From: a virus
Length of the DNA: 64,000 nucleotides
Reading direction: 5' to 3' (one strand)
Virus record (IMG/VR): IMGVR_UViG_3300047160_036265
Shown: positions 3,681-64,000 of the stretch, one piece after another
Numbering within the stretch: the first letter of the stretch is position 1
Layout: each line of letters begins with the position of its first letter
Program-made: the position numbers and the translations under genes
The notes under the pieces: model-generated
The model's database searches: none
Told to the model about the DNA's origin: nothing
Seen by the model: only the letters and a program-made list of their open reading frames with translations

Positions 3681-3769
3681 TGGACCGACAGAGGAATCGA
3701 ACCTCCTTCCCTCCTGGGAGGGGCCTTATGGCGACCCAGCCAGGCGACCTACCTCTAGTCGATCAGTCC
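3681..3769 (-). tRNA. tRNA, class II (long variable arm); anticodon uncertain
   Basis: Acceptor GGACUGA/UCGGUCC, T-arm GGAGGUUCGAUUCCUC, variable-arm hairpin CCCUCC-CA-GGAGGG; 89 nt. Confidence 0.5.
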
Positions 3770-3886
3770 AAAGAAGCAGGAGAAATTAACGATAAAGGGG
3801 TTTCTTGTTGACCACCGTGCTACTGTTACACTACATCCCTCCGAAGAGAGACGCCGGATTCGCACCGGACCAGCGGTTTGGAATTA

Positions 3887-3919
3887 GAAGTAACCCTCAT
3901 CTGCACCATCCTGCTTTAG
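3887..3919. repeat. tRNA-associated repeat family A copy (GAAGTAACCC-N4-CTGCACCATCC)
   Basis: Motif lies immediately 3' of tRNA-Gln on the gene strand. A matching GGAGAAAT...GGGGTTTC half sits about 100 nt away at 3787-3815. Confidence 0.6.
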
Positions 3920-12742: not shown

Positions 12743-12835
12743 CTCGTCAGGCAGGACTCGAACCTGCAACCTGGCGGTTAAGTTAAGGTCTGTCAGGACC
12801 AACAGCCGCCTGCTCTACCATTGAGCTACTGACGA
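12743..12835 (-). tRNA. tRNA-Asn(GUU)-like with about 21-nt insertion in the anticodon arm
   Basis: Acceptor UCGUCAG/CUGACGA, D-arm GCUC-AAUGGUA-GAGC, T-arm GCAGG-UUCGAGU-CCUGC; anticodon stem GGCGG/CCGCC encloses 28 nt (CUGUUGG plus a GGUC-CUGACA-GACC hairpin). Confidence 0.5.
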
Positions 12836-21297: not shown

Positions 21298-21996
21298 TCA
21301 TTTTAGCCTTTCGACCAGGGCTTCGGCCAGCCTGTCTTTCAGTTCTTTGTTCTGTTGCGGCAGCGGCCCGCCGACGAAATGGGCGTAGAGGAAGTGCAGG
21401 TTCTCCAGGCCCGCCTCGGTTGCCGTGGCCTTGCGGAGCTTCAAGCGAACGTCGTCCGGGCTGTCATCCAGAAATACGCAGCCGGGGGGCGAAGATTTCG
21501 ACATCTTCTTGTCGGGTTCCCGCAAATCCTTGACCCGACCACCCATGAGATTTGCAACGGGGATCGGATAGGTCGTCTGGAACCGGCGGTTGCAGCGATG
21601 CAGAAGCTTTCGTGCATACTGCAAGTGCTGATGCTGGTCCTCCCCGACCATGACTTCATTATACCCGGCCACATCATGAGCCATCAACACCGGGTACGTC
21701 AAAAGGTGAGCGGTGCGGCGGTCGTCGGCGCAGGATTTGAATTGCGTCATGCGCCCCAGATCGCCCATCTTGGCCAGGACGAGGAGCCGAAAATATAACT
21801 CGGCGTCAAAAACATCCTTTTGCAACCGGATGTTCTGGACGCCGAACCTCCGCAGAGTGGCCACCGACTGACTTGTGTTTTGTTCTTCGGGTGCGTGGTA
21901 ATTTGCAACCAGCACATCCGCACCCTGTTGCCCCGGCAGAATTACCGAGAAGTAATGACCCAGGTGCAGCCGCCCCGTGGGCCTAAAGCCGCACAA
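21298..21996 (-). CDS. trpS: tryptophanyl-tRNA synthetase-like, minimal (232 aa)
   Basis: HIGH-region RLHLGHY, GDLGRMTQFKSC (E. coli GELSRMTQFKDK), YPVLMAHDV, VMVGEDQHQHLQYARKLLHRCN and KMSKS all match TrpRS; about 100 aa shorter than bacterial TrpRS, mostly in the anticodon-binding domain. Confidence 0.65.
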   Translation of the reverse strand: MCGFRPTGRLHLGHYFSVILPGQQGADVLVANYHAPEEQNTSQSVATLRRFGVQNIRLQKDVFDAELYFRLLVLAKMGDLGRMTQFKSCADDRRTAHLLTYPVLMAHDVAGYNEVMVGEDQHQHLQYARKLLHRCNRRFQTTYPIPVANLMGGRVKDLREPDKKMSKSSPPGCVFLDDSPDDVRLKLRKATATEAGLENLHFLYAHFVGGPLPQQNKELKDRLAEALVERLK

Positions 21997-24682: not shown

Positions 24683-25861
24683 TTAAGCCAAAACTTCGGT
24701 GACAACGCCCGATCCGATGGTTTTCCCACCCTCACGGATGGCGAAGTGGCTGCCCACTTCCAGGGCGATGGGCTTCTCCAGCAGAACCTCCAGGGTCGCG
24801 TTGTCGCCCGGCAGGATCATTTCGATGGGCGGCACCAGCTTCATCTCCCCGGTCACGTCCGTGGTACGGAAGAAGAACTGCGGCTTGTAGCCGTCCATGA
24901 ACGGCGTGTGCCGCCCGCCCTCTTCCTTGCTCAAGACGTAGACTTCGGACAGGAACTTGGTCTGGGGCTTGATCGTCCGTGGGGCTGCAAGCACCTGGCC
25001 CCGCTCGATCTCGTCGTTCTTGACCCCTCGCAGGAGCAAGCCGACGTTCTGGCCGGCGACCGCCTCATCAAGCGGTTGCTTGAACGCCTCGACGCTGACC
25101 ACCACGACCTCGCGCATCTCGCCCAGGCCCAGGATTTCCACCTTGCCGCCTGGCCGGATGCTGCCCTGCTCGATCTTGCCCGTCGCCACGGTGCCCCGAC
25201 CGACAATCGAGTGTACGCCTTCGACGTACATCAGGAAGGGGCGGTCCATCTTGCGCACCGGGTCCGGGATGTACGAGTCCAGGGCTTCCAGCAACTCGTT
25301 GATGCAGCGGGTGGCGTCCGGGTCGGTCGGATCGTCCAGAGCGCCCTTGGCGTTGCCACGGACCACCGGCGTCTTGTCGCCGTCGAATCCGAACTTCGTC
25401 AGAAGCTCCCTGGTTTCCATCTCGACCAGTTCGATGATTTCGGGGTCGTTGACCAGATCGACCTTGTTGATGAACACCACGATGTCAGGCACACCGACCT
25501 GACGGGCCAGCAGAATATGCTCCTTGGTCTGCGGCATCGGGCCGTCCGCAGCCGACAGCAGCAAGATCGCCCCGTCCATCTGCGCCGCACCCGTAATCAT
25601 GTTCTTCACATAATCGGCGTGTCCGGGGCAATCGACGTGGGCGTAGTGCCGCTTGGCGGTTTCGTACTGGACGTGGCTGGTGATGATGGTGACGGTTTTA
25701 TTTTCGTCACGCACCGTGCCACCCTTGGCGATGTCCTTGTAGCTTTTGACTTTCGCCAAGCCCTTCTTGGCCTGAACCGCCAGGATCGCAGCGGTCAGGG
25801 TCGTCTTCCCGTGGTCGATGTGACCAATCGTTCCGACGTTGACGTGAATCTTCTCCGACAT
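24683..25861 (-). CDS. tuf: translation elongation factor Tu
   Basis: [17 protein letters not shown] (G1), [49 protein letters not shown] (G3), NKVD (G4); full-length 392-aa EF-Tu with domains 2 and 3. Confidence 0.9.
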
Positions 25862-27364: not shown

Positions 27365-27420
27365 AGTTCGGCAGGAGAAAAAATCGCTTAGAGTTGGCTT
27401 TAGCATTTGTGATCGGCTTG

Positions 27421-40626: not shown

Positions 40627-40663
40627 CGTGAGAGCTACTTCGCCTGCGATTGCTCGCAAGAGG
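40627..40663. repeat. repeat family C copy (GTGAGA..TCGCCTGCGATTGCTCGCAAGA)
   Basis: cgtgagagctacttcgcctgcgattgctcgcaagagg; related copies at 41481-41534 and 51385-51438. Confidence 0.5.
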
Positions 40664-41480: not shown

Positions 41481-41534
41481 GGCGTGAGAAGTGTGTCGCC
41501 TGCGATTGCTCGCAAGAACGCCTTTGCTCACGCC
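41481..41534. repeat. repeat family C copy
   Basis: ggcgtgagaagtgtgtcgcctgcgattgctcgcaagaacgcctttgctcacgcc, an imperfect palindrome GGCGTGAG...CTCACGCC with an inner GCGA-UUGC-UCGC hairpin; directly 3' of the 279-aa ORF. Confidence 0.55.
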
Positions 41535-50989: not shown

Positions 50990-51440
50990 ATATTCGGGCA
51001 GGGGTCTTTCTTTTGCGTTTGAAGTAACCCTGGCCTGCACCTACCCCCATTATGTATTGAAACCGGAGAAATATTCGGGCAGGGGCTTTCGTTGTGATTG
51101 AAGTAACCCTGACCTGCACCTTCCGGTTATGTTCTCGAATACGAGGGCGGGAGAAATAGTCGCTGCGAGTGTTTTTCAAAACCATTTTCTGAAGTAACCC
51201 GCAACTGCACCGTCCCGCCAAGTACCCCCGCCAGGAATTGAACCCGGCCTTCAACGTCCGAAGCGTTGCGTGCGATGCCGACACACTCCGGGGGCAAGAA
51301 TCTCTGGAGATATAGACGACCAGGGGCTTTTCGACATTAGTGGTGTTGAAGTAACCCTAGCCTGCACCTTCCAGAGAGTATTGGGGCGTGAGAAGTAGCT
51401 CGCCTACGATTTCTCGCAAGAACCCTCTCGCTCACGCCGA
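50990..51440. repeat. tandem array of four repeat-family-A units (about 85 bp each) with two embedded tRNAs and one repeat-C copy; candidate Y-RNA-like or tRNA-derived small RNA array next to rsr
   Basis: GAAGTAACCC-N4-CTGCACC at 51021, 51100, 51191 and 51348, each preceded by the GG(A/C)GAAATA(T/G)TCG..GGG..TTTC half; sits directly downstream (on the gene strand) of the Ro60-like gene. Confidence 0.55.
51223..51295 (-). tRNA. tRNA-Arg(UCG)
   Basis: Acceptor GCCCCCG/CGGGGGU, D-arm GUGUGUCGGCAUCGCAC, anticodon arm CAACG-CUUCGGA-CGUUG, T-arm GCCGGGUUCAAUUCCUGGC. Confidence 0.6.
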
Positions 51441-51441
51441 G

Positions 51442-51513
51442 TACCCCGTGCGGGAATTGAACCTGCTCTTTTACCTTCGGAGGGTAACGTGCTGTCCGGC
51501 ACACTCACGGGGT
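51442..51513 (-). tRNA. tRNA-Arg(CCG)
   Basis: Acceptor ACCCCGU/ACGGGGU, D-arm GUGUGCCGGACAGCAC, anticodon arm UUACC-CUCCGAA-GGUAA, T-arm GCAGG-UUCAAUU-CCCGC. Confidence 0.6.
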
Positions 51514-51569
51514 ATTGTTGCCCGACCCCCACAGTATATAGCAGGGATCGGGCAGTTGTCAAGGGTTGT

Positions 51570-53483
51570 TTAGGCGATCTTGTACTTCGCCCGCAGGACT
51601 TCCAGCGGCGGCACTTCCTTGGCCTCGCCCTGCTCCTGCTCGCCCAGGCCCTCGCAGTCAGCGATGATGTTGACCAGCTTCTCCGACCAGCCGGACAGCA
51701 GGTGGGTCTGCTTGTCGGTCGGCTTCACCTGAGCCTGGCCGTGGCCGTTCAGGTTGATGCTGTACACCTTGCACTGCGCGTTGACCTTCTGGCGGTAGTC
51801 GGCGCACATCGACTGCACGCTCATCCCCTTGAAGTGGTCCTTGCCGCCGTGGCACAGGTTGGCGTTCCCCTGCGTGTAGCAGCAGAAGTCACTCATGATG
51901 ATGATGCGGTCAACGTGGAGCTTCTTGTCCGTGATGTCCTTGAGGCCCCACCACAGACCCGTCTCCGTGCCGCCGCCCACACCACCGCCGTAGCGGTTGC
52001 TGCCCAGGCCACCGTGGGTCTTCGGGTCGTCGCTCTGGGCGCACTTCTTCACCTGCTCGTGGATCGCCAGGCAGGTGTCAGCCTGGCTGAACGGCACCCA
52101 CACCAGCATGTCACCGAACACGCCGATCTTCACGCGACGGCCCAGCTTCTTCGCCAGGACGGCCATCAGCATGTTGCCGGCGTCGGCAACCACCAGCCGG
52201 GACTTGGCGCTCGTGGCGCAGCCCGTGGCCGAACCGGAGTTGTCCGTCAGGACCACCGTGATGCCCGGCAAGTCGGCAATGTTGTTGCACGCCTGGTCCA
52301 GCTTCAGGTCGATCACCGTCTTGGCTTCCGTCGTGGAAACCTCGTTCTTGGCGGTGAACCACCGGAACGGAAGCTGCACAGAGTCTTCCTTGCCCTGAAG
52401 CTTCTCGTAGACCTTGCTCCACAGAGCATCGCTGATCTTGGCCTGCTCGAAGTTGCGCAGGTTGCGGGTAAGGGCCATCTCGCCCATCATCGGGATGCAC
52501 AGTTCCCAGACTTCCTTGCTGGAACCCAGGTGCGACAGCACGTTCTCCCAGGTCAGACCGGCCAGGCGCAGGAAGTCCGGGGTCACGCCCAAGGCCGGGA
52601 GGCCCTGCGCAGCCACGTCCTTCTTGTCGAGGCCGAAGAACTTCTTCCGGGCCTGGAGCAGCGGCGACGAGTTACCGTCCACCACGCCGTTCACCAGGAA
52701 GTCGAACAGGCTCTTGGACACGGGCCAGCCCACGTCCTTGTTCTGCTCGTGTTCGCCCTGCTCGTCCTGCACCTTCACAGTGACGGTGCTGATGCTGCCG
52801 GCCTTGGCCAGCTTCTTGTGCTTGGAGCCACGGAGCATCTTCAGCAGGTCGGCGTAGTTCGGGCGCTCCGTGGTGTCGTACTTCAGGATTTCGTATTCCG
52901 AGAACCGGGCGATGGCGGCGCACAGCGCCTTGCGCAGCGCGTGCGGCAGCGCACCCTTGTGGCGTGGCTTCGAGCGCTGGTACAGGTGGCGGAAGGCCGC
53001 AAACACCTGGAGCGGTTCATCGGCACGGTCCATGATCCGTGGGCCGTACTTGGCCAGGAACGGACGGGTCTTCTCGTTCGCCGCAGCGACCACCAGCATC
53101 ATCTGCGGGGTGGTGCGCAGGCGCAGGCCCTCCGTCTTGTCGCGTGCCCAGGACGCGATAATGAACAAGTCTTCCGGGTGATCGCCCTTGGCGACCGCCT
53201 GAGCCGTCTCGATGACTTCCTGGGCCTGCTCGGTCAAGCCGACCTCGTTGACGATCTTGGACTCGATGCGCCCGACCGTGGTAAGCTCCGTGATGAAAGC
53301 TTCATAGTCACGGTTGGAGTCGTAATACTTCGGCTCGTTGAAGAACCCGCCGCCGATGGTGTGCATCAGCTTCACGGCAGGGTCGTTGATCTCGTAGGCA
53401 ACGCCTGGAACATGCTTGTGGGCCACCTGCTCCTCAGCAGCAGCCTTGTGGACATCCTTCTTCTCGAAAGCGAACTTGGACAT
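51570..53483 (-). CDS. rsr: Ro60/Rsr-like protein (TROVE + vWA domains)
   Basis: Start at MSKFAFEK, preceded by GGAGAGGAGAG. IGGGFFNEPKYY resembles the Ro60 GSEGGTYY segment; helical-repeat N-terminal region; C-terminal vWA with MIDAS ITVVLTDNSGSATG; about 640 aa. Confidence 0.5.
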   Translation of the reverse strand: MSKFAFEKKDVHKAAAEEQVAHKHVPGVAYEINDPAVKLMHTIGGGFFNEPKYYDSNRDYEAFITELTTVGRIESKIVNEVGLTEQAQEVIETAQAVAKGDHPEDLFIIASWARDKTEGLRLRTTPQMMLVVAAANEKTRPFLAKYGPRIMDRADEPLQVFAAFRHLYQRSKPRHKGALPHALRKALCAAIARFSEYEILKYDTTERPNYADLLKMLRGSKHKKLAKAGSISTVTVKVQDEQGEHEQNKDVGWPVSKSLFDFLVNGVVDGNSSPLLQARKKFFGLDKKDVAAQGLPALGVTPDFLRLAGLTWENVLSHLGSSKEVWELCIPMMGEMALTRNLRNFEQAKISDALWSKVYEKLQGKEDSVQLPFRWFTAKNEVSTTEAKTVIDLKLDQACNNIADLPGITVVLTDNSGSATGCATSAKSRLVVADAGNMLMAVLAKKLGRRVKIGVFGDMLVWVPFSQADTCLAIHEQVKKCAQSDDPKTHGGLGSNRYGGGVGGGTETGLWWGLKDITDKKLHVDRIIIMSDFCCYTQGNANLCHGGKDHFKGMSVQSMCADYRQKVNAQCKVYSINLNGHGQAQVKPTDKQTHLLSGWSEKLVNIIADCEGLGEQEQGEAKEVPPLEVLRAKYKIA

Positions 53484-53568
53484 GATGACTCTCCTCTCCA
53501 ACTCAGCAGGGACCAGAGATAATATCGGCAGGAGTCCCGGCCCATAACAATAGGGCCGGTAAAACGGT

Positions 53569-53593
53569 GAAGTAACCCCCACCTGCACCTTCC
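53569..53593. repeat. repeat family A copy upstream of rsr
   Basis: gaagtaacccccacctgcaccttcc. Confidence 0.55.
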
Positions 53594-53770
53594 GGTCGGT
53601 CGAATGTTCTAGGCTACTTCACTATACGCAGGATGCAGCCTGTTGTAAACTACTTTTTTGAGAACCTTGGGTCTTGTCTCAATTTTCCCCAGCACATGGG
53701 CCGGGATTTATATGGTAGTGCGGGCTTTTCAAAAATTCAAGCCGACGTGCGATTATTTTGGGAAATATTT

Positions 53771-56105: not shown

Positions 56106-57320
56106 CTACCGAGTGACGTAGACCGACGCCTTCCCCTCCATGTTGCTGTCCTGCACCTGCCAGCCCTGGGCAACGATCTGATCCCGCACCGCATCGGCCT
56201 CGGCCCACTTCCGTTCGTCCCGTAGCGCAGCCCGCCGTGCGGCCAGTTCCTTTATGTCCTGCGGCACTTCATAATGTTCGACCTTGAATCCCAGCACGTC
56301 CGCCATCATCTTCGACGGCTCCCGGTGCAACTCGGCCAGGGCCACCGGCGTATTCAGGTCTTCGTCCATCGCCTCGATAAAGCCCTTGGTCATTCCCTCG
56401 GCGGGGGCGTTCAGAAGTTTATTGCGCAGGCTGCGCCACTGCAAATAGCACTGGTGGAAGCCGTACTGGTCGAGCGGCTGGCGATAATGGGCCTGAAGAA
56501 TCCAAAATCGCAGCATGTTCGGGTCGATCTGCTGCGCCCGCAGGTCGCGCAAATAAATAGCGTTGCCCTCGGACTTGCCCATCTTCTTGCCACGATTTTC
56601 AACAAAACCGTTGTGCAGCCAAATGGCGGCGAGCGGCTTGCCAATCAGCGATTCGCTAATAGCGATCTCGTTCTCATGGTGGGGGAATATCAGGTCGCAG
56701 CCACCGCAGTGAATATCGACGCTGCCGCCCAGCAACTCCTTGATAAAGACGGCGCACTCGGTATGCCAGCCTGGCCGACCCGCCACGAACATCTTCTTGT
56801 CCTCCTGGTTATTCTTCCAGAGGTAGAAGTCCTCGCAGGTCGTGTGGCCGGACAACTGGCCGTAGTTTTTGAAATTCTGACCGTGGAAGCGCACTCCATC
56901 CGCAACTTCGTAGGCCAGGCCCTTGACCAGCATCTCATTGACCCAGCCGGCCATCGCCCAGAAATACTTGGTCACACGGGGGTAGGCGTCAGCCCGCTGG
57001 ACGTTGAGCCAGTCGAAGTCCTCGAAATAAGAATCAATGTACTTGTCGCCCACCTGCTCGCAGGTGCAATGGTCCTGGCGGGCACGCTCGATGATCTTGT
57101 CGTCAATGTCCGTGAAGTTCTGGACGTACTTCACGGGGCGACCACGAAACTCCAGCCACCGACGCAGCACGTCCCAGGTGATGTACGACCGGGCATGGCC
57201 AATATGGCAGTAGTCATACGGTGTTACACCGCAGGCGTAAACCTGGAGCGCCCCATTGAGGATGCCGATATTGGGCAGGAAGTCAAGTTGCTTGGTCAGC
57301 GTGTTATAAAGCCGGATCAT
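56106..57320 (-). CDS. cysS: cysteinyl-tRNA synthetase
   Basis: YACGVTPYDYCHIGHARS (HIGH), DIHCGGCDLIFPHHENEIA, KMGKSEGN (KMSKS), FIEAMDEDLNTPVAL match CysS throughout; 404 aa. Confidence 0.85.
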   Translation of the reverse strand: MIRLYNTLTKQLDFLPNIGILNGALQVYACGVTPYDYCHIGHARSYITWDVLRRWLEFRGRPVKYVQNFTDIDDKIIERARQDHCTCEQVGDKYIDSYFEDFDWLNVQRADAYPRVTKYFWAMAGWVNEMLVKGLAYEVADGVRFHGQNFKNYGQLSGHTTCEDFYLWKNNQEDKKMFVAGRPGWHTECAVFIKELLGGSVDIHCGGCDLIFPHHENEIAISESLIGKPLAAIWLHNGFVENRGKKMGKSEGNAIYLRDLRAQQIDPNMLRFWILQAHYRQPLDQYGFHQCYLQWRSLRNKLLNAPAEGMTKGFIEAMDEDLNTPVALAELHREPSKMMADVLGFKVEHYEVPQDIKELAARRAALRDERKWAEADAVRDQIVAQGWQVQDSNMEGKASVYVTR

Positions 57321-58205: not shown

Positions 58206-60281
58206 TCACAGCATCCTCTTCAGGTCGTCCAGGGAAAGCTGCGGAATGCCCAATTCCTGGGCCTTCTGCTGCTTGGAACCGGCGTCCGTGCCGACCACAA
58301 CGTAGTCGGTCTTCTTGGACACGGAGCCGCCGCACTTGCCGCCCAGGTCTTCCACGGCCTTCTGCCAGTGGTCCTTGCCCTCCGGGAAGCCGCCGGTGAA
58401 CACAAACGTCTTCCCGGTCAACTTGCCGGTCTTGGGCAGCACCGGCTCGACGTGCTGGAGCAGGTCATCGACCAGCCGCCCGTGCCGGCGGAACCAGTCG
58501 TAGAGAATCTGGGCAGTCTTCTCGCCCACTTCCTCCACGTCCTCCAACTGCTGCACCGTGGCGGTGCGAATATAGTCGAGGCTGCGGAAGTGACTTTCCA
58601 GCGCCCGCCCGGCGCTCTTGCCTGCCGTGGGGATGCCCAGGCTGGCGAGGAACTGCCACAGCGGAACCTTGTGCTTCTGCTTCGCCGCCTTCTCGATGGC
58701 GTCCGACAACGGCTGCTTCCCCTTGATCTTGTCCGGGGCGTCGATCATGTGGATACGAGCCACGACAAGGAACTGCGAGCGAAACTCCTTCTTGGTGTTG
58801 TGCGGGTCTTCGCCATCCAGCTTGATAAGGTCCGCCACCTGCAAGGTGTAGAAGTCCGCCGGCCCCTTGACCAGCTTGGCCTCATATAATTTGCCCACCG
58901 TCGCGTCCGACAGACCCTTGACGCCGAAGGTGGTCAGGTAATGGCACAGGCCCGCCACCGCCCGCTCCCCACAATAGTCGTTGGGGCAGAACAGCGATTC
59001 CTTGTTGTCGTCGCCGGTGCGAACACTGAGCGGATAGGCACAGGTCGGGCAGTTCTTGGGCCAGGGGAAGGTGGTCTGGCCCCGGACGACCTTGTGGCAC
59101 TTGGGGATGATCTTCCCTGACTTGATGACTTCGATCTCGGTGCCGACACCGATCTTGTTCTCGTTGATATATCCGTAGTTGTGGCCCGTGCAGCAAGTGA
59201 CACTGGTGCCGGCCAACTGGACCGGATTTTCAAAAATCAAAACCGGGGTCACATGGCCGGTCCTGCCGACGTTCAACTCGAACGCCTTGATACGGGCGAT
59301 AGCGATTTCCTCGGAGAACTTCCAGGCGATCTTGCCCTTGGGGTTGCCGTTGGGGGAATTGCCGTGGGTGCCAAGCTGCTCCTGGTCCTCCAACTCCGAC
59401 ACGGACACCACCACGCCGTCCACTTCGTAGTCCAGGGTCGGGGCCAGCTTCTCCATCATGGCCAGGTCTTCGTAGCGGAAAGGGCGAACCTGGACATAGG
59501 GAATGCCCAGGGTCTTGGCGCACCACTTGGCCCGCTCGATCTCGTTCTTGTAAGGCGGGTTGGCGAGGCCGAAGATGGAGTAAGCGCTGAAGGACAGCTT
59601 GCGGTCCTTGGTGATGGTGGGGTCGGTGAACTGGCGGATGCTGCCGGTGGCGTAGTTGCGTGGGTTGGCGAAGGTCTTCTCACCCCTGGAGGCAAGCTCG
59701 GCGTTCAACTTTTCAAAAACGCTCTTCTTGCAGACGATCTCGCCCCGGATGCAGCAGGAAATACTGATGGGCAGGGTGGTAGGCACGCCCTCGACGTACT
59801 GGATATTTTCCGTCACGTCCTCGCCGTTGATGCCGTCACGAGGCCGTAGGCCGGCGCGAATCAGCTTGCCGTGCTGATAATAGATGGCGACGGCCACGCC
59901 GTCCCACTTGAATGCCTGGACATATTGCCGGCCCCGGCGCTTCTCGTCATAGGTCAGAGCGCTGTCGCAGTTGCCCAGCCACTCGTTCAGGGCCTCCTCG
60001 CGCTCCTCCAGCGGCCCGATGGCCTTGGAGATGCTGGTCATGGGCGGATAGTGCTTGACCTTTTTGGCCGCACCGTCGAAGTCCGCCGATGAAGGCTTCT
60101 TCAACTCCTTGGAGTCGGGGCGAATCGTGGCCAACCGCTTCACCAGCAGGTCATATTCCGGGTCTGCGACCACCACCTTGGTGTCGGGGTGGATGCAGGG
60201 TTCGCCCTGCTCGTAGAGGTTGTCCAGGTGACGCTTGATGCGCTCCAGGTCGTTCGCTTCTTGGGCCAGGTCAACGGTCAT
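58206..60281 (-). CDS. ligA: NAD-dependent DNA ligase
   Basis: Adenylation motif FKWDG (KxDG), OB fold, Zn finger CPTC..CPNDYC, HhH repeats, and a C-terminal BRCT (KTFVFTGGF..GGSVSKKTDYVVVG); 691 aa. Confidence 0.85.
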   Translation of the reverse strand: MTVDLAQEANDLERIKRHLDNLYEQGEPCIHPDTKVVVADPEYDLLVKRLATIRPDSKELKKPSSADFDGAAKKVKHYPPMTSISKAIGPLEEREEALNEWLGNCDSALTYDEKRRGRQYVQAFKWDGVAVAIYYQHGKLIRAGLRPRDGINGEDVTENIQYVEGVPTTLPISISCCIRGEIVCKKSVFEKLNAELASRGEKTFANPRNYATGSIRQFTDPTITKDRKLSFSAYSIFGLANPPYKNEIERAKWCAKTLGIPYVQVRPFRYEDLAMMEKLAPTLDYEVDGVVVSVSELEDQEQLGTHGNSPNGNPKGKIAWKFSEEIAIARIKAFELNVGRTGHVTPVLIFENPVQLAGTSVTCCTGHNYGYINENKIGVGTEIEVIKSGKIIPKCHKVVRGQTTFPWPKNCPTCAYPLSVRTGDDNKESLFCPNDYCGERAVAGLCHYLTTFGVKGLSDATVGKLYEAKLVKGPADFYTLQVADLIKLDGEDPHNTKKEFRSQFLVVARIHMIDAPDKIKGKQPLSDAIEKAAKQKHKVPLWQFLASLGIPTAGKSAGRALESHFRSLDYIRTATVQQLEDVEEVGEKTAQILYDWFRRHGRLVDDLLQHVEPVLPKTGKLTGKTFVFTGGFPEGKDHWQKAVEDLGGKCGGSVSKKTDYVVVGTDAGSKQQKAQELGIPQLSLDDLKRML

Positions 60282-61224: not shown

Positions 61225-62382
61225 CTAAATCCCGCCGTGGGGCTTTTCCGGTTGGGCGCAGCGCTGGAGATATTCCTTCCAGCGACCCCGCTCGAAGAAT
61301 TCCACGGCGTCACAGAACATGACGCCGCAGCGAGCGGCGAAGGTCTTGTCGGTGGTCATATCGCCCACCATGACCACCCGCCGGGGGTCCAGCTTGTATT
61401 TCTCGATCCAGTGGACGCCCATGCCCGGCATGGGCTTGCGACAGTAACAGGTGATGGGGGGAACACGGTGCGGGCAGTAGCCGATCTCGATGTCCACCCC
61501 CAGCATGTCGTTGGTGCGCTCGAAGCAGGCTACGGCGTCTTCGTGGGACAACTCGCCCTTGGCGATGGCCGACTGGTTGCTGGCTCCCAGGAGGCGGAAG
61601 GCGTGCCTCTCGAATTCCTTGAGGACTTCGCTGCGCCCGTTGAGGGTTTCCACGTCGTCGGGGTGGGTTGGCCATTTGTTGCCGGCGCGAGAGCGGCGCA
61701 GGCAGCCGTCGTAGTCCAGCCACAGGCCCTTGTTGTTGTAGCCGGTGGGGCGGCGGACGAAGGGCACCGTGGTGATGTCTGTGAAACCTTCGCTCTTTTC
61801 CGGCTTCTGGTAGTCCTTCCGGTAGGCGAAGAGGACGGCGGGAGGGAAGAGGTTGGGATCACGAGCCGCCTTGATTTCCTCTGGCGAGAGAATCTTGCCC
61901 TTCTTCTCCATCATGCGGGTGCAGGCGTTGTACTGGCTGTCCTCGATAGAGGTTCCCATGACCACAGCGTTGACTGCGAGGCCGTGCTTCCTGCCCAGGT
62001 CGATGAAGGGCTTGCGGCTGGCCCTGGTAGCGAACAGGTTGTCGAGAACGAACGTACCCTGCCCGCCCATGATATAGTTTTCCAGCGGGTGCAGAAGGTC
62101 GTCCACCTTGCCGCTCATCACGTCCCGGTTGAGACGGACGTAGCCCCGTTTAACGTAGTCCTGGGTCACGGTGGTCTTGCCGCTGGCCGGGTAGCCCAGG
62201 ACCAGGACGATCTCGGAGGGCAGGTGCCTCGACTTGGGAGCGGGGGAAGCAGCCATTTCGGTCTTCTTCTGGACGGTGGTGGTGGGTTTCGCCATGATGG
62301 TCCTTTGCAAAGTAAGAGTTGATGCTACTCGTCTTCCTCGTCCTTCTTGGGCGGCAGGGGCTTGGGCTGGACCTTCTGCCAC
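61225..62382 (-). CDS. polynucleotide kinase / 3'-phosphatase (Pnkp-like)
   Basis: N-terminal P-loop kinase VLGYPASGKTT; C-terminal HAD phosphatase motifs WLDYDGCL (DxDG), GASNQS, VMVGDMTTD. Confidence 0.6.
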   Translation of the reverse strand: MAEGPAQAPAAQEGRGRRVASTLTLQRTIMAKPTTTVQKKTEMAASPAPKSRHLPSEIVLVLGYPASGKTTVTQDYVKRGYVRLNRDVMSGKVDDLLHPLENYIMGGQGTFVLDNLFATRASRKPFIDLGRKHGLAVNAVVMGTSIEDSQYNACTRMMEKKGKILSPEEIKAARDPNLFPPAVLFAYRKDYQKPEKSEGFTDITTVPFVRRPTGYNNKGLWLDYDGCLRRSRAGNKWPTHPDDVETLNGRSEVLKEFERHAFRLLGASNQSAIAKGELSHEDAVACFERTNDMLGVDIEIGYCPHRVPPITCYCRKPMPGMGVHWIEKYKLDPRRVVMVGDMTTDKTFAARCGVMFCDAVEFFERGRWKEYLQRCAQPEKPHGGI

Positions 62383-63328: not shown

Positions 63329-64000
63329 TCACGGGGTTATTTCCGGGCCAGTTTTCCGCTGGGACGGGCGACGATCCTCGTCGGTCTTTTTGTGGGCCTC
63401 GGTCCAACCGGGCATCTTCTTCGCCATCCACTTGCGAAGGTCATCCATGCTCCACGGCTTGAAGTCGTGCTTGTCCACGCCGATGTCGAGCGTCAGGTTG
63501 TCGCCCCGCTCGTCCTCGTCAAAGTACAGGCCGTGGACATGGCCGTACAGCATCCAACTTCCCTTGTGGGAGCGGTCCCAGGCCCGCATCGGGTAGTGGT
63601 TGAGGAAAATCCACTGCCCATCCACGTTGATGAGGGTCTGATCCTGCACCTGATTGAACAGGGGCCGGTACGAAGAATCGTCGTGGTTGCCCCAGATCAG
63701 GTTGATGGTCTGGCAGTTGATGCGGTCACGAAGCTCACGCGCACGCCGGAGATCGTGGCCCCAGAAGGCATCGCCGCCGTGCCACAGGATGTCATCCCGG
63801 CCCACGCGAGCGTTGATGTTGTCGATCATGACGGAGTTCATCCAGTCGATGGACTCCGGGGAAATGCGCACCTTATGCGGCTCGATCCGCCCAGCATCCG
63901 CCATCGCCATGAGTTCGATTTCACGGCTGTTGACGAAGGGACGACGGCAATATTTGATGATATTGCCGTGGTCGAAGTGCGTGTCTGCGATAAACCAAGT
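63329..64000 (-). CDS. calcineurin-like metallophosphoesterase (partial; N-terminus lies beyond the right edge)
   Basis: The frame stays open upstream of the annotated Met to the window end: ..TWFIADTHFDHGNII (motif I), WHGGDAFWGHD (II), GNHDD (III), GHVHG. Confidence 0.6.
   Translation of the reverse strand, partial: TWFIADTHFDHGNIIKYCRRPFVNSREIELMAMADAGRIEPHKVRISPESIDWMNSVMIDNINARVGRDDILWHGGDAFWGHDLRRARELRDRINCQTINLIWGNHDDSSYRPLFNQVQDQTLINVDGQWIFLNHYPMRAWDRSHKGSWMLYGHVHGLYFDEDERGDNLTLDIGVDKHDFKPWSMDDLRKWMAKKMPGWTEAHKKTDEDRRPSQRKTGPEITP

What the first reader, a model, noticed from the sequence alone, without database searches (positions are those of the whole stretch)
50990..53593. Ro60/Rsr-like protein flanked by a tandem array of tRNA-associated repeat elements, a candidate Y-RNA-like module
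The ORF at 51570-53483 has a helical-repeat N-terminal region and a C-terminal vWA MIDAS (VVLTDNSGSATG), consistent with TROVE+vWA Ro60 orthologs. Immediately downstream are four tandem ~85-bp units (GG(A/C)GAAATA..GGG..TTTC ... GAAGTAACCC-N4-CTGCACC(A/G)TCC) interleaved with two tRNA-Arg genes and a repeat-C element, and one more unit lies just upstream at 53569. Bacterial and phage Y RNAs (YrlA) sit next to rsr and contain tRNA-like domains. The most intact unit, 28872-28948, has tRNA acceptor and T-arms plus a UUGACC segment.
Basis: inference. Interest (0 to 1): 0.8.

Follow-up and report, generated by a model that had tools for sequence, protein, structure and literature searches.

The report
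Phage Ro60 gene with Y RNAs
A giant virus-like genome carries its own copy of the RNA-quality-control protein Ro60, plus ten small structured partner RNAs (Y RNAs) wedged between its tRNA genes; this kind of system is already known, here in an unusually multi-copy, tRNA-embedded form.

Summary
ORF 51570-53483 (-) is a genuine Ro60/Rsr ortholog. It has a Pfam TROVE domain (E=4e-23) and a DNSGS MIDAS motif. Its AlphaFold model matches full-length Ro60 structures (E~1e-15), and all 13 significant hits are Ro60.

The repeat is a real structured RNA family. There are 10 copies, all on the gene strand, against 0.19 expected by chance. Two helices covary: 13 of 17 pairs carry compensatory changes, and 97.6% of cells pair versus about 50% in shifted controls.

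- Seven copies are 68-87 nt hairpins ("minis"). Five of these flank the Ro60 gene.
- Three copies are 137-157 nt. Two of them carry a T arm, acceptor-like hairpin and D arm, which is the YrlA tRNA-mimic layout. The third keeps only a T arm.

The same RNA module flanks TROVE genes on the same strand in every relative examined. In bacterial genomes it co-occurs with TROVE genes in 26 of 28 loci, against 0 of 52 motif-only loci.

Six copies start 1-6 nt after a tRNA, which suggests maturation by tRNA-processing enzymes. No copy reaches Rfam's YrlA threshold.

Phage Ro60 with Y RNAs is already documented, so this is a new member of a known kind, with an unusual copy number and tRNA-operon embedding. 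Binding, expression and function are untested.

The parts
53621..53649 (-). Sigma-70-like promoter site (TTTACA-17-TATAGT) upstream of the leader Y-like RNA and the Ro60 gene
   Evidence: consensus match only, 10/12
53511..53597 (-). Mini Y-like RNA (87 nt, with an extra apical hairpin), 28 nt upstream of the Ro60 ATG. A mini occupies the same leader position in L016, L017 and bacterial L019.
   Evidence: (58.4 bits, E=6e-12)
51570..53483 (-). Ro60/Rsr ortholog, 637 aa: TROVE HEAT-repeat ring plus vWA domain with MIDAS DNSGS (residues 414-418)
51533..51562 (-). Sigma-70-like promoter site (TTGACA-18-TATACT, 11/12) between the Ro60 stop codon and the tRNA/Y-RNA array
51441..51513 (-). tRNA-Arg(CCG), first gene of the downstream array
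51377..51440 (-). 64-nt stable hairpin ('repeat C'). It belongs to a different repeat family, with copies near 41481-41530 and 40640-40661. It is absent at the syntenic site in L016, and its role is unknown.
51302..51376 (-). Mini Y-like RNA (75 nt); ends 6 nt before tRNA-Arg(UCG)
   Evidence: (68.8 bits)
51222..51295 (-). tRNA-Arg(UCG)
51146..51219 (-). Mini Y-like RNA (74 nt); starts 2 nt after tRNA-Arg(UCG)
   Evidence: (78.7 bits)
51061..51128 (-). Mini Y-like RNA (68 nt)
   Evidence: (72.9 bits)
50981..51048 (-). Mini Y-like RNA (68 nt), last of the array; the next ORF's RBS and ATG follow at about 50955
   Evidence: 72.2 bits
32635..32708 (-). Mini Y-like RNA between two tRNA-Gln genes (spacers of 1 and 3 nt)
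   Evidence: (76.5 bits)
32169..32238 (-). Mini Y-like RNA between a tRNA-like gene and tRNA-Glu (spacers of 6 and 5 nt)
   Evidence: (75.8 bits)
28789..28945 (-). Long YrlA-type Y RNA (157 nt): closing helices 1 and 2, V stem, T arm, 7-bp acceptor-like hairpin, D arm and one extra hairpin. It starts 2 nt after tRNA-Ile.
   Evidence: (Rfam YrlA 28.2 bits, E=0.0016)
27370..27506 (-). Long Y-like RNA (137 nt) with a T arm but no clear acceptor-like hairpin or D arm; lies between tRNA-Thr and tRNA-Gly (spacers of 2 and 5 nt)
   Evidence: (60.8 bits)
3775..3915 (-). Long YrlA-type Y RNA (141 nt) with a T arm, 8-bp acceptor-like hairpin and variant D arm; starts 3 nt after tRNA-Gln
   Evidence: (52.7 bits)

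Best explanation
The window comes from a ~670-kb phage-like genome that carries a complete Ro60-Y RNA module, probably acquired from a Planctomycetota-type host.

Shown:
- The 637-aa protein is a ring-shaped Ro60 (TROVE HEAT repeats plus a vWA/MIDAS domain).
- Ten genes on the same strand encode RNAs that share one conserved module. Helix 1 is formed by the 5' and 3' ends (NNNNGGA / UCCNNNN). An internal loop follows (5' W-GGUGCA, 3' CGAYUWUUUC). Then comes an 8-bp helix 2 (G-N4-GGG / CCC-N4-C), and then UUACUUC.
- In three copies the apical part holds tRNA-like elements. Two have a T arm, acceptor-like hairpin and D arm, which is the YrlA layout; the third keeps only a T arm. In seven 'minis' the apical part is a short A-rich loop, as in the hairpin-type second Y RNAs (YrlB, Yrn2).

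Inferred:
- The shared module is the Ro60-binding site. It is the only part common to both size classes, and it is conserved across phyla next to TROVE genes.
- The RNAs are transcribed together with tRNAs. One copy lies in the Ro60 leader. Four lie in a tRNA-Arg operon with its own promoter-like site directly after the Ro60 stop codon. Five lie in distant tRNA arrays.
- The RNAs are cut out by the enzymes that mature the neighbouring tRNAs (RNase P at the downstream tRNA 5' end, a 3'-end endonuclease at the upstream tRNA), because spacers are only 1-6 nt.
- By analogy with characterised systems, the RNAs gate Ro60's cavity and tether it to an exoribonuclease such as host PNPase. That would give the phage its own structured-RNA surveillance and turnover machine alongside its large tRNA and translation gene set.
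For: Protein:
- TROVE E=4.4e-23; PHROG 'RNA-binding protein' E=1.3e-22.
- Best PDB sequence hit is Thermus phage phiLo Ro60. That alignment pairs the query's DNSGS with phiLo's DVSGS, and a separate, non-significant stretch aligns the C-terminal GWS motif.
- DNSGS is invariant in 32 homologs.
- The model (pLDDT 82, pTM 0.84) matches 13 Ro60 chains at E=1e-15 to 5e-10; TM normalised to target is 0.63-0.76 for the 12 best and 0.55 for the 13th.

RNA reality:
- 10 copies versus 0.19 expected.
- Short copies: 13/17 pairs with compensatory changes, 97.6% paired versus 46-57% in slid controls, 0/500 shuffles.
- 33 long copies from window, phage and bacterial loci: 25/31 pairs compensatory, 93% paired versus 41-54% slid. 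These include the T arm, acceptor-like hairpin and D arm.

Link to Ro60:
- Relatives at 89%, 70%, 49% and 54% protein identity all carry 4-5 elements flanking the TROVE gene on its strand. L016 repeats the exact order Ro60, tRNA-Arg(CCG), mini, tRNA-Arg(UCG), mini, mini, mini.
- Viral contigs L001 (elements, then Ro60, then RtcB), L005, L006 and L010 have arrays directly upstream of TROVE genes.
- In 80 genome loci that carry the 21-nt core, 26 of the 28 with a full structural match have a TROVE gene within the 8-kb locus; 0 of the other 52 do (Fisher p=5e-19).

Link to the known family:
- Rfam YrlA hits at E=0.0016 in the window, and at 60.4 bits (E=1.8e-11), 43.1, 38.7, 36.1, 34.0, 32.1 and 27.1 bits in relatives, coinciding with the long copies.
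- Cultured Ro-encoding phages score in the same sub-threshold range, 36-44 bits.
- UUAC matches the published YUAY motif. GGUG(C/A)AG resembles the published GNCGAAN0-1G motif (PMC4201824).

Processing: six copies begin 1-6 nt after a tRNA 3' end, and four end 3-6 nt before a tRNA 5' end. M. smegmatis YrlA and YrlB come from one precursor, and YrlA is an RNase P substrate (PMC4201824).
Against: - No expression, end-mapping or binding data exist for these RNAs or this protein.
- No copy reaches Rfam's YrlA gathering score (28.2 versus 69).
- The 5' motif is not literally GNCGAAN0-1G.
- All five copies next to the gene lack the tRNA-like domain that defines YrlA.
- Five copies lie 19-48 kb from the Ro60 gene, outside the 4-kb criterion used in the literature.
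- The mini loops are A-rich, not the small pyrimidine-rich loop described for YrlB and Yrn2.
- No PNPase, RtcB or other known Ro60 partner was found in the window.
- The TROVE-association statistic counts related genomes, so the events are not independent.
- That the genome is a phage rests only on its gene content and on related IMG/VR contigs; no structural gene was seen in the window.
Confidence: 0.82

Rival explanations
1. The elements are punctuation or processing signals of tRNA operons, or a selfish repeat that spreads in tRNA arrays. On this view they have no functional tie to Ro60, and their presence next to the Ro60 gene follows only from the two tRNA-Arg genes there.
For: Six of ten copies abut tRNA genes with 1-6 nt spacers. 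L008 has three copies between tRNA-Phe genes with no TROVE gene in the 13.7-kb locus. Five window copies lie 19-48 kb from the Ro60 gene.
Against: - The bacterial locus L019 and the 669-kb contig locus L018 have 4 elements each flanking the TROVE gene. ARAGORN calls no tRNA in either; Rfam finds one tRNA in L018, plus a marginal tRNA-like hit inside a long copy in L019.
- 26/28 structural matches in bacterial genomes sit in the same 8-kb locus as a TROVE gene, versus 0/52 controls.
- A mini sits 28-37 nt before the Ro60 ATG in the window, L016, L017 and L019.
- Long copies have YrlA architecture.
Confidence: 0.04
2. The minis are not trans-acting Y RNAs. The leader copy would be a cis-regulatory element through which Ro60 autoregulates its own mRNA. 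The array copies would be decoys that soak up the host's Ro60, which recognises the same module, and so disable host RNA surveillance.
For: The leader position is conserved from bacteria to phage. The phage and Planctomycetota host-type RNAs share the same module. High copy number suits a titration role.
Against: The phage encodes its own Ro60, which argues for use of the system rather than only sequestration. Upstream Y RNAs co-transcribed with rsr and then processed are already documented in M. smegmatis. Nothing in the sequence separates cis from trans action.
Confidence: 0.1
3. The minis are decaying remnants of YrlA genes that lost their tRNA-like domain and no longer function.
For: Copy 27370-27506 looks intermediate, with a T arm only.
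Against: - Both helices of the minis keep pairing through compensatory substitutions (13/17 pairs).
- 18 columns are invariant across window, phage and other loci.
- Minis recur at the same positions in bacteria and phages whose Ro60 proteins are only 49-57% identical to the window protein.
Confidence: 0.04

Closest known systems
Bacterial and mycobacteriophage YrlA/YrlB Y RNAs with Rsr (Chen et al. 2013, 2014; Rfam RF02553)
   Same: - The RNAs are encoded beside a Ro60 ortholog and on its strand.
- The 5' and 3' ends pair to form the closing stem.
- The long form has V, T, acceptor-like and D elements in the YrlA order, with YUAY (here UUAC) at the start of the V region.
- A second, hairpin-only Y RNA type is present in the same genome.
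- Upstream copies are probably co-transcribed with the protein gene and processed.
- Sub-threshold but significant Rfam YrlA hits.
   Different: - The 5' motif is GGUG(C/A)AG rather than GNCGAAN0-1G.
- No copy passes the Rfam gathering score.
- There are ten copies in 64 kb, against about 1.3 YrlA per genome in the 2014 survey (355 in 276 genomes).
- Half of the copies lie far from the Ro60 gene, inside tRNA arrays.
- The copies next to the gene are all hairpin-only.
- Mini loops are A-rich, not pyrimidine-rich.
Thermus phage phiLo Ro60 with Yrl1/Yrl2 (NAR 2025, PMC12135203; PDB 9KOP, 9L5Y)
   Same: It is a phage-encoded Ro60 with Y-like RNAs next to the gene. It is the best sequence match in the PDB (E=2.6e-09) and a structural match. 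The RNAs have a stem, internal loop and stem, with a CGA-containing loop.
   Different: - The proteins share only about 18% identity.
- phiLo has two upstream Yrls and no reported tRNA linkage.
- The window protein is about 140 residues longer.
- Binding and PNPase recruitment are shown for phiLo and untested here.
Deinococcus radiodurans Rsr-Yrn1-PNPase (RYPER) complex
   Same: It is the source of the mechanistic model used here: Y RNA binds Ro60 through its stem and tethers it to an exoribonuclease through its apical module. The predicted fold matches 2NVO.
   Different: No PNPase gene lies in the window. The host enzyme would have to be recruited, and that is untested.
Ro/TROVE genes of cultured jumbo and actinophages (Bacillus phage G, Streptomyces phage Quantum, Gordonia phage Neville)
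   Same: TROVE genes lie beside tRNA clusters, with sub-threshold YrlA hits just upstream of the gene (36-44 bits). The jumbo-phage review notes TROVE proteins as part of RNA-repair sets.
   Different: - Protein identity to the window is only 24-26%.
- The covariance model for the window's module gives at most a faint hit there (21.6 bits in phage G).
- No tRNA-interleaved multi-copy arrays are annotated in those records.

Membership tests
Ro60 / Rsr (TROVE + vWA) | TROVE (HEAT-repeat ring) domain detectable by profile | tested here: met
   PF05731 E=4.4e-23, 82.6 bits against a cut-off of 23, residues 85-389; phrog_850 'RNA-binding protein' E=1.3e-22
Ro60 / Rsr (TROVE + vWA) | C-terminal vWA domain with MIDAS DxSxS | tested here: met
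   D414-N-S-G-S418 is invariant in 32 homologs and aligns to DVSGS of phiLo Ro60. The model shows an alternating strand-helix (Rossmann-like) fold from residue 409. The Pfam vWA_Ro60 profile alone is weak (12 bits, below cut-off).
Ro60 / Rsr (TROVE + vWA) | Overall ring fold like solved Ro60 structures | tested here: met
   Foldseek against the PDB: the top 13 hits are all Ro60 (9NFA, 2I91, 1YVP, 9KOP, 2NVO and others), E=1e-15 to 5e-10. TM normalised to target is 0.63-0.76 for the 12 best and 0.55 for the 13th, over about 570-650 aligned columns. This is a predicted model, not an experimental one.
Ro60 / Rsr (TROVE + vWA) | Binds Y RNA and misfolded RNA ends | not testable with these tools
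   Needs EMSA, CLIP or a structure of the complex
YrlA (tRNA-mimic Y RNA; Rfam RF02553, Chen 2014) | Encoded within about 4 kb of a Ro60 ortholog, on the same strand | tested here: met
   Five copies lie 28-522 nt from the ORF on its strand. The other five are on the same strand but 19-48 kb away. The three copies with a tRNA-like module are among these distant ones.
YrlA (tRNA-mimic Y RNA; Rfam RF02553, Chen 2014) | tRNA-like module: T arm, acceptor-like hairpin, D arm | tested here: met
   Met for 28789-28945 and 3775-3915, partial for 27370-27506 (T arm only), and absent in the seven minis. All three arms covary in the 33-sequence alignment.
YrlA (tRNA-mimic Y RNA; Rfam RF02553, Chen 2014) | 5' motif GNCGAAN0-1G | tested here: not met
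   The window copies have GGUGCAG (one has GGUGCAU), and some relatives have GGUGAAG. That is one or two differences from the published motif (motif).
YrlA (tRNA-mimic Y RNA; Rfam RF02553, Chen 2014) | YUAY at the start of the V region | tested here: met
   UUAC is invariant in all 10 window copies and nearly so in 33 long copies
YrlA (tRNA-mimic Y RNA; Rfam RF02553, Chen 2014) | Reaches the Rfam gathering score (69 bits) | tested here: not met
   The best window hit is 28.2 bits and the best relative 60.4 bits. There was no hit at gathering threshold in the window or in 26 loci. Cultured Ro-phage loci also score only 36-44 bits.
YrlA (tRNA-mimic Y RNA; Rfam RF02553, Chen 2014) | Bound by Ro60; carries tRNA-type modifications; substrate for RNase P and the CCA-adding enzyme | not testable with these tools
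   Biochemical features
Hairpin-type second Y RNA (YrlB / Yrn2) | Long hairpin closed by the 5' and 3' ends, with an internal loop and no tRNA-like module | tested here: met
   Seven minis; consensus of two covarying helices separated by a conserved internal loop
Hairpin-type second Y RNA (YrlB / Yrn2) | Small pyrimidine-rich apical loop | tested here: not met
   The apical region reads UUACUUC, a variable stretch, then an A-rich GAAAAACA; the published description is
Hairpin-type second Y RNA (YrlB / Yrn2) | Shares the putative Ro-binding motif with the YrlA of the same genome | tested here: met
   The same helix 1, loop and helix 2 module occurs in minis and long copies; one model finds both

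The most novel reading that the evidence does not exclude
Huge phages may have spliced Y RNA genes into their tRNA operons. Y RNAs would then be made in step with phage tRNAs and released by the tRNA-maturation nucleases. The hairpin-only minis would form a high-copy pool with one of two roles. They could programme the phage Ro60 to police or recycle the phage's own large tRNA set. Alternatively, because the host's Y RNAs carry the same module, they could titrate host Ro60 and take over the host RNA-surveillance and PNPase machinery. The conserved mini in the Ro60 leader would add autoregulation.
Probability: 0.25. Interest if true: 0.65.

Novelty: new member of a known kind. Interest (0 to 1): 0.45.

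Why it matters
Ro60-Y RNA particles are conserved from bacteria to humans, and Ro60 is a major lupus and Sjogren autoantigen. Their function in bacteria and phages is still poorly understood.

This locus, with the related loci found here, defines a well-supported Y RNA subfamily that the current Rfam model does not annotate. The subfamily has a shared GGUGCAG/GGGUUACUUC module, two size classes, and members in Planctomycetota, Acidobacteriota and huge phages.

The spacing gives a concrete, testable biogenesis model: Y RNAs released from tRNA operons with 1-6 nt spacers. It also gives a natural pair of RNAs, with and without the tRNA-like domain on an identical putative Ro-binding platform. That pair could be used to separate Ro binding from effector recruitment.

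It also adds RNA surveillance to the list of translation-related functions carried by huge phages.

Tried and rejected
- Rfam at gathering threshold on the window and on 26 related loci gave only tRNAs and no Y RNA family. The link to YrlA appears only with E-value thresholds.
- A protein-based search of IMG/VR for close relatives found nothing, and megablast against GenBank phages found nothing. Relatives came from a DNA-motif scan and from the protein database.
- Nine near-identical IMG/VR contigs carry the 21-nt core in another context (L002 and others). The model scores them at E=0.2 only, so I treated them as one chance match. Likewise 52 of 80 genome hits to the core are chance; about 70 are expected for 17 fixed bases in 596 Gb.
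- I considered reading the repeat as a promoter (TTGNCN ... TTACTT). I rejected it because the -10 is poor and the bases lie inside covarying helices.
- 'UUGACC' as a Ro-binding motif is rejected; it is a tRNA trailer plus the variable helix 1.
- The CobT-like vWA reading is rejected.
- The first alignment, A1, used wrong coordinates for two copies and was discarded.
- The supplementary tables of Chen 2014 and two Wolin reviews are not held. I could not check whether Planctomycetota YrlAs of this subtype are already listed.
- Pfam and PHROG scans of about 30 neighbouring ORFs found no RtcB, PNPase or RNA ligase. About 8-10 kb upstream there is a polynucleotide kinase/phosphatase-like ORF and a metallophosphatase.


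Full report
**Observation**

All genes in the region lie on the - strand. ORF 51570-53483 encodes 637 aa from an ATG preceded by GGAGAGGAGAG. Its N-terminus agrees with that of 31 homologs.

ARAGORN and Rfam place tRNA-Arg(CCG) at 51441-51513 and tRNA-Arg(UCG) at 51222-51295, directly downstream of the stop codon.

The repeat core GGTGCAG-N4-GGGTTACTTC occurs 10 times in the window, always on the - strand. Shuffles give 0.19 on average and a maximum of 2. Four copies follow the ORF, interleaved with the two tRNA-Arg genes, and one lies 28 nt upstream of the ATG.

**The protein**

- Pfam gives TROVE at E=4.4e-23, and PHROGs gives the phage 'RNA-binding protein' family at E=1.3e-22.
- The best PDB sequence match is the Ro60 of Thermus phage phiLo (9KOP/9L5Y). 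That alignment pairs the window's DNSGS with phiLo's DVSGS; a separate, non-significant stretch aligns the C-terminal GWS motif.
- DNSGS is invariant across 32 homologs.
- An AlphaFold2 model (pLDDT 82, pTM 0.84) matches full-length Xenopus, human, Deinococcus and phiLo Ro60 at E=1e-15 to 5e-10. TM normalised to target is 0.63-0.76 for the 12 best hits. The first 13 hits are all Ro60, and the next hits are unrelated vWA proteins at E>0.005.

It is a Ro60/Rsr ortholog, not a CobT-like vWA protein.

The identical protein sits on a 669,797-bp contig. Homologs at 50-58% identity are mostly from Planctomycetota MAGs.

**The RNA**

Read on the - strand, every copy has the same layout:
1. A 5' strand NNNNGGA, then W-GGUGCAG.
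2. Four variable bases, then GGGUUACUUC.
3. A variable middle.
4. CCC plus four variable bases, then CGAYUWUUUC, then UCCNNNN.

An unguided MAFFT alignment of seven window minis plus three minis from viral contigs gives an RNAalifold consensus of two helices. Of 17 pairs, 13 carry compensatory double changes. 97.6% of cells pair, against 46-57% when partners are slid by 1-3 columns. No shuffle out of 500 reaches the observed values on any measure.

A covariance model built from this alignment (R1) recovers exactly ten copies in the window:
- Seven minis of 68-87 nt: 50981-51048, 51061-51128, 51146-51219, 51302-51376, 53511-53597, 32169-32238 and 32635-32708.
- Three long copies of 137-157 nt: 3775-3915, 27370-27506 and 28789-28945.

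The long copies insert tRNA-like elements between helix-2 strands. Copy 28789-28945 folds into a V stem, T arm (GCUGGGUUCGAUUCCUGGC), 7-bp acceptor-like hairpin, D arm (GCUCAGUGGUAGAGC) and one further hairpin. That order is the published YrlA layout (PMC4201824). Copy 3775-3915 has the same arms in variant form, and copy 27370-27506 keeps only a T arm.

In an alignment of 33 long copies from window, phage and bacterial loci, 25 of 31 consensus pairs show compensatory changes. 93% of cells pair, against 41-54% in slid controls. Every arm contributes.

**Association with Ro60**

This is the key test of the Y RNA reading, and it is positive throughout.
- All four relatives of the protein that I fetched carry 4-5 R1 elements flanking the TROVE gene on its strand. 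They are L016 (89% identity), L017 (70%), L018 (49%, another 669-kb contig) and L019 (54%, a Planctomycetaceae MAG).
- L016 reproduces the window's order exactly: mini, Ro60, tRNA-Arg(CCG), mini, tRNA-Arg(UCG), mini, mini, mini.
- A motif scan of IMG/VR found independent contigs in which arrays of 2-6 elements lie directly upstream of TROVE genes (L001, L005, L006, L010). L001 continues into RtcB, the classic rsr-rtcB arrangement.
- A scan of 185,579 species genomes returned 95 motif hits, 80 of them fetched as loci. Of these, 28 have a full structural match, and 26 of the 28 have a TROVE gene in the same 8-kb locus. None of the 52 motif-only loci has a TROVE gene (Fisher p=5e-19). The genomes are phylogenetically related, so this p-value overstates independence.
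- The module accompanies both the long (~630 aa) and the short (430-490 aa) Ro60 subfamilies. The short-subfamily proteins match the window protein only locally, at 22-31% identity over 120-160 residues.

**Relation to the known family**

No copy anywhere reaches Rfam's YrlA gathering score of 69 bits. With E-value thresholds, however, the long copies are significant YrlA matches:
- 28.2 bits (E=0.0016) in the window.
- 60.4 bits (E=1.8e-11), then 43.1, 38.7, 36.1, 34.0, 32.1 and 27.1 bits in relatives.

Loci of cultured Ro-encoding phages (Gordonia Neville, Streptomyces Quantum, Bacillus G) also score only 36-44 bits just upstream of their Ro genes. Sub-threshold scores are therefore normal for phage YrlAs.

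The invariant UUAC matches the published YUAY motif. GGUG(C/A)AG is one or two substitutions from the published GNCGAAN0-1G motif. The R1 module itself is subfamily-specific: it gives only a faint hit in phage G (21.6 bits) and none in the actinophages.

**Genomic organisation and likely biogenesis**

Six of the ten copies begin 1-6 nt after a tRNA 3' end, usually after a CUU trailer. Four end 3-6 nt before the next tRNA.

A strong sigma-70-like site (TTGACA-18-TATACT) sits between the Ro60 stop codon and tRNA-Arg(CCG). A weaker one precedes the leader mini.

I infer that the RNAs are transcribed within tRNA operons and released by tRNA-end maturation. This fits the report that M. smegmatis YrlA and YrlB derive from one precursor and that YrlA is an RNase P substrate. 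L008, a 343-kb viral contig, shows the same wedging between tRNA-Phe genes.

**Function**

By analogy with D. radiodurans, Salmonella and phage phiLo, the shared module would bind Ro60, and the apical part would recruit or gate partners such as PNPase.

The window is a translation island. It holds at least 48 tRNAs, EF-Tu, three aminoacyl-tRNA synthetase genes, an NAD-dependent ligase and a polynucleotide kinase/phosphatase-like ORF. An RNA surveillance or turnover role tied to the phage's own tRNA pool is therefore plausible, but it is inferred, not shown. No PNPase or RtcB is present in the window.

**Novelty and verdict**

Ro60 with adjacent Y RNAs in phages has been known since 2014 (22 phages), and it was studied structurally in 2025. 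TROVE proteins in jumbo phages have been noted in a review. The held literature contains nothing on Y RNAs embedded in phage tRNA arrays.

I rate this a new member of a known kind. The noteworthy twists are ten copies, two size classes on one platform, tRNA-operon embedding, and a subfamily that Rfam does not annotate. Interest is moderate.

Noticed in passing
It is a stable 64-nt hairpin (MFE -27.6 kcal/mol, z=-3.4) between tRNA-Arg(CCG) and the first downstream mini. Copies elsewhere in the window are 87-91% similar. It is absent at the syntenic site in the 89% relative L016. Function unknown.
   Followed up: partly
window 1-64000: The window is a translation island of a ~670-kb contig. It holds 48 ARAGORN tRNAs plus 4 Rfam-only tRNA hits, all on the - strand. 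It also has EF-Tu (24683-25861), CysRS (56106-57320), a class II Asp/Lys/Asn-type synthetase (211-1563), a TrpRS/TyrRS-like ORF (21298-21996) and two sigma-factor-like ORFs. Several tRNAs are oversized, e.g. tRNA-Gln of 93 nt at 12743-12835.
   Followed up: partly
window 61225-62382 (-) and 63329-63910 (-): A polynucleotide kinase / HAD phosphatase-like ORF and a calcineurin-like metallophosphatase lie 8-10 kb upstream of Ro60. These are candidate RNA end-healing enzymes. No RNA ligase or RtcB was found in the window.
   Followed up: no
window 43049-43783 (-) and 43983-44996 (-): Adjacent ThiF/E1-like and prokaryotic JAB deubiquitinase-like ORFs, i.e. a ubiquitin-like conjugation pair.
   Followed up: no
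window 58206-60281 (-) and L018 1708-3837: An NAD-dependent DNA ligase lies a few kb upstream of Ro60, both in the window and in another 669-kb contig whose Ro60 is only 49% identical. This is conserved synteny between two huge elements.
   Followed up: no
window about 3690-3765 (-): A sequence just downstream of the long Y RNA 3775-3915 has a T arm (GGAGGTTCGATTCCTC) and complementary ends (GGACTGA / TCGGTCC). Neither ARAGORN nor Rfam calls it. It may be an aberrant or intron-containing tRNA.
   Followed up: no
L008 2112-2754 (343-kb IMG/VR contig): Three Y-like elements are wedged between tRNA genes (two of them tRNA-Phe), with no TROVE gene in the 13.7-kb locus. This is a second huge phage that embeds Y RNAs in tRNA arrays.
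   Followed up: partly
window 53511-53597; L016 2374-2458; L017 2299-2381; L019 4890-4971: A mini element sits 28-37 nt before the Ro60 start codon in the phage, in its relatives and in a bacterial MAG. The conserved leader position suggests co-transcription and possibly autoregulation.
   Followed up: partly
L117 2688-2759 (Bacillus phage G): A weak hit of the mini model (21.6 bits, E=0.0017) lies about 240 nt upstream of the phage G TROVE gene, in an unannotated gap. It may be a distant relative of the module.
   Followed up: no
L002-L004, L007, L009, L011-L013, L015 (IMG/VR): Nine near-identical small viral contigs carry the exact 21-nt core in a different conserved context (gtcacaGGTGCAGACTTGGGTTACTTCttctc) without the rest of the structure. 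I judged this a chance match in a single lineage.
   Followed up: partly
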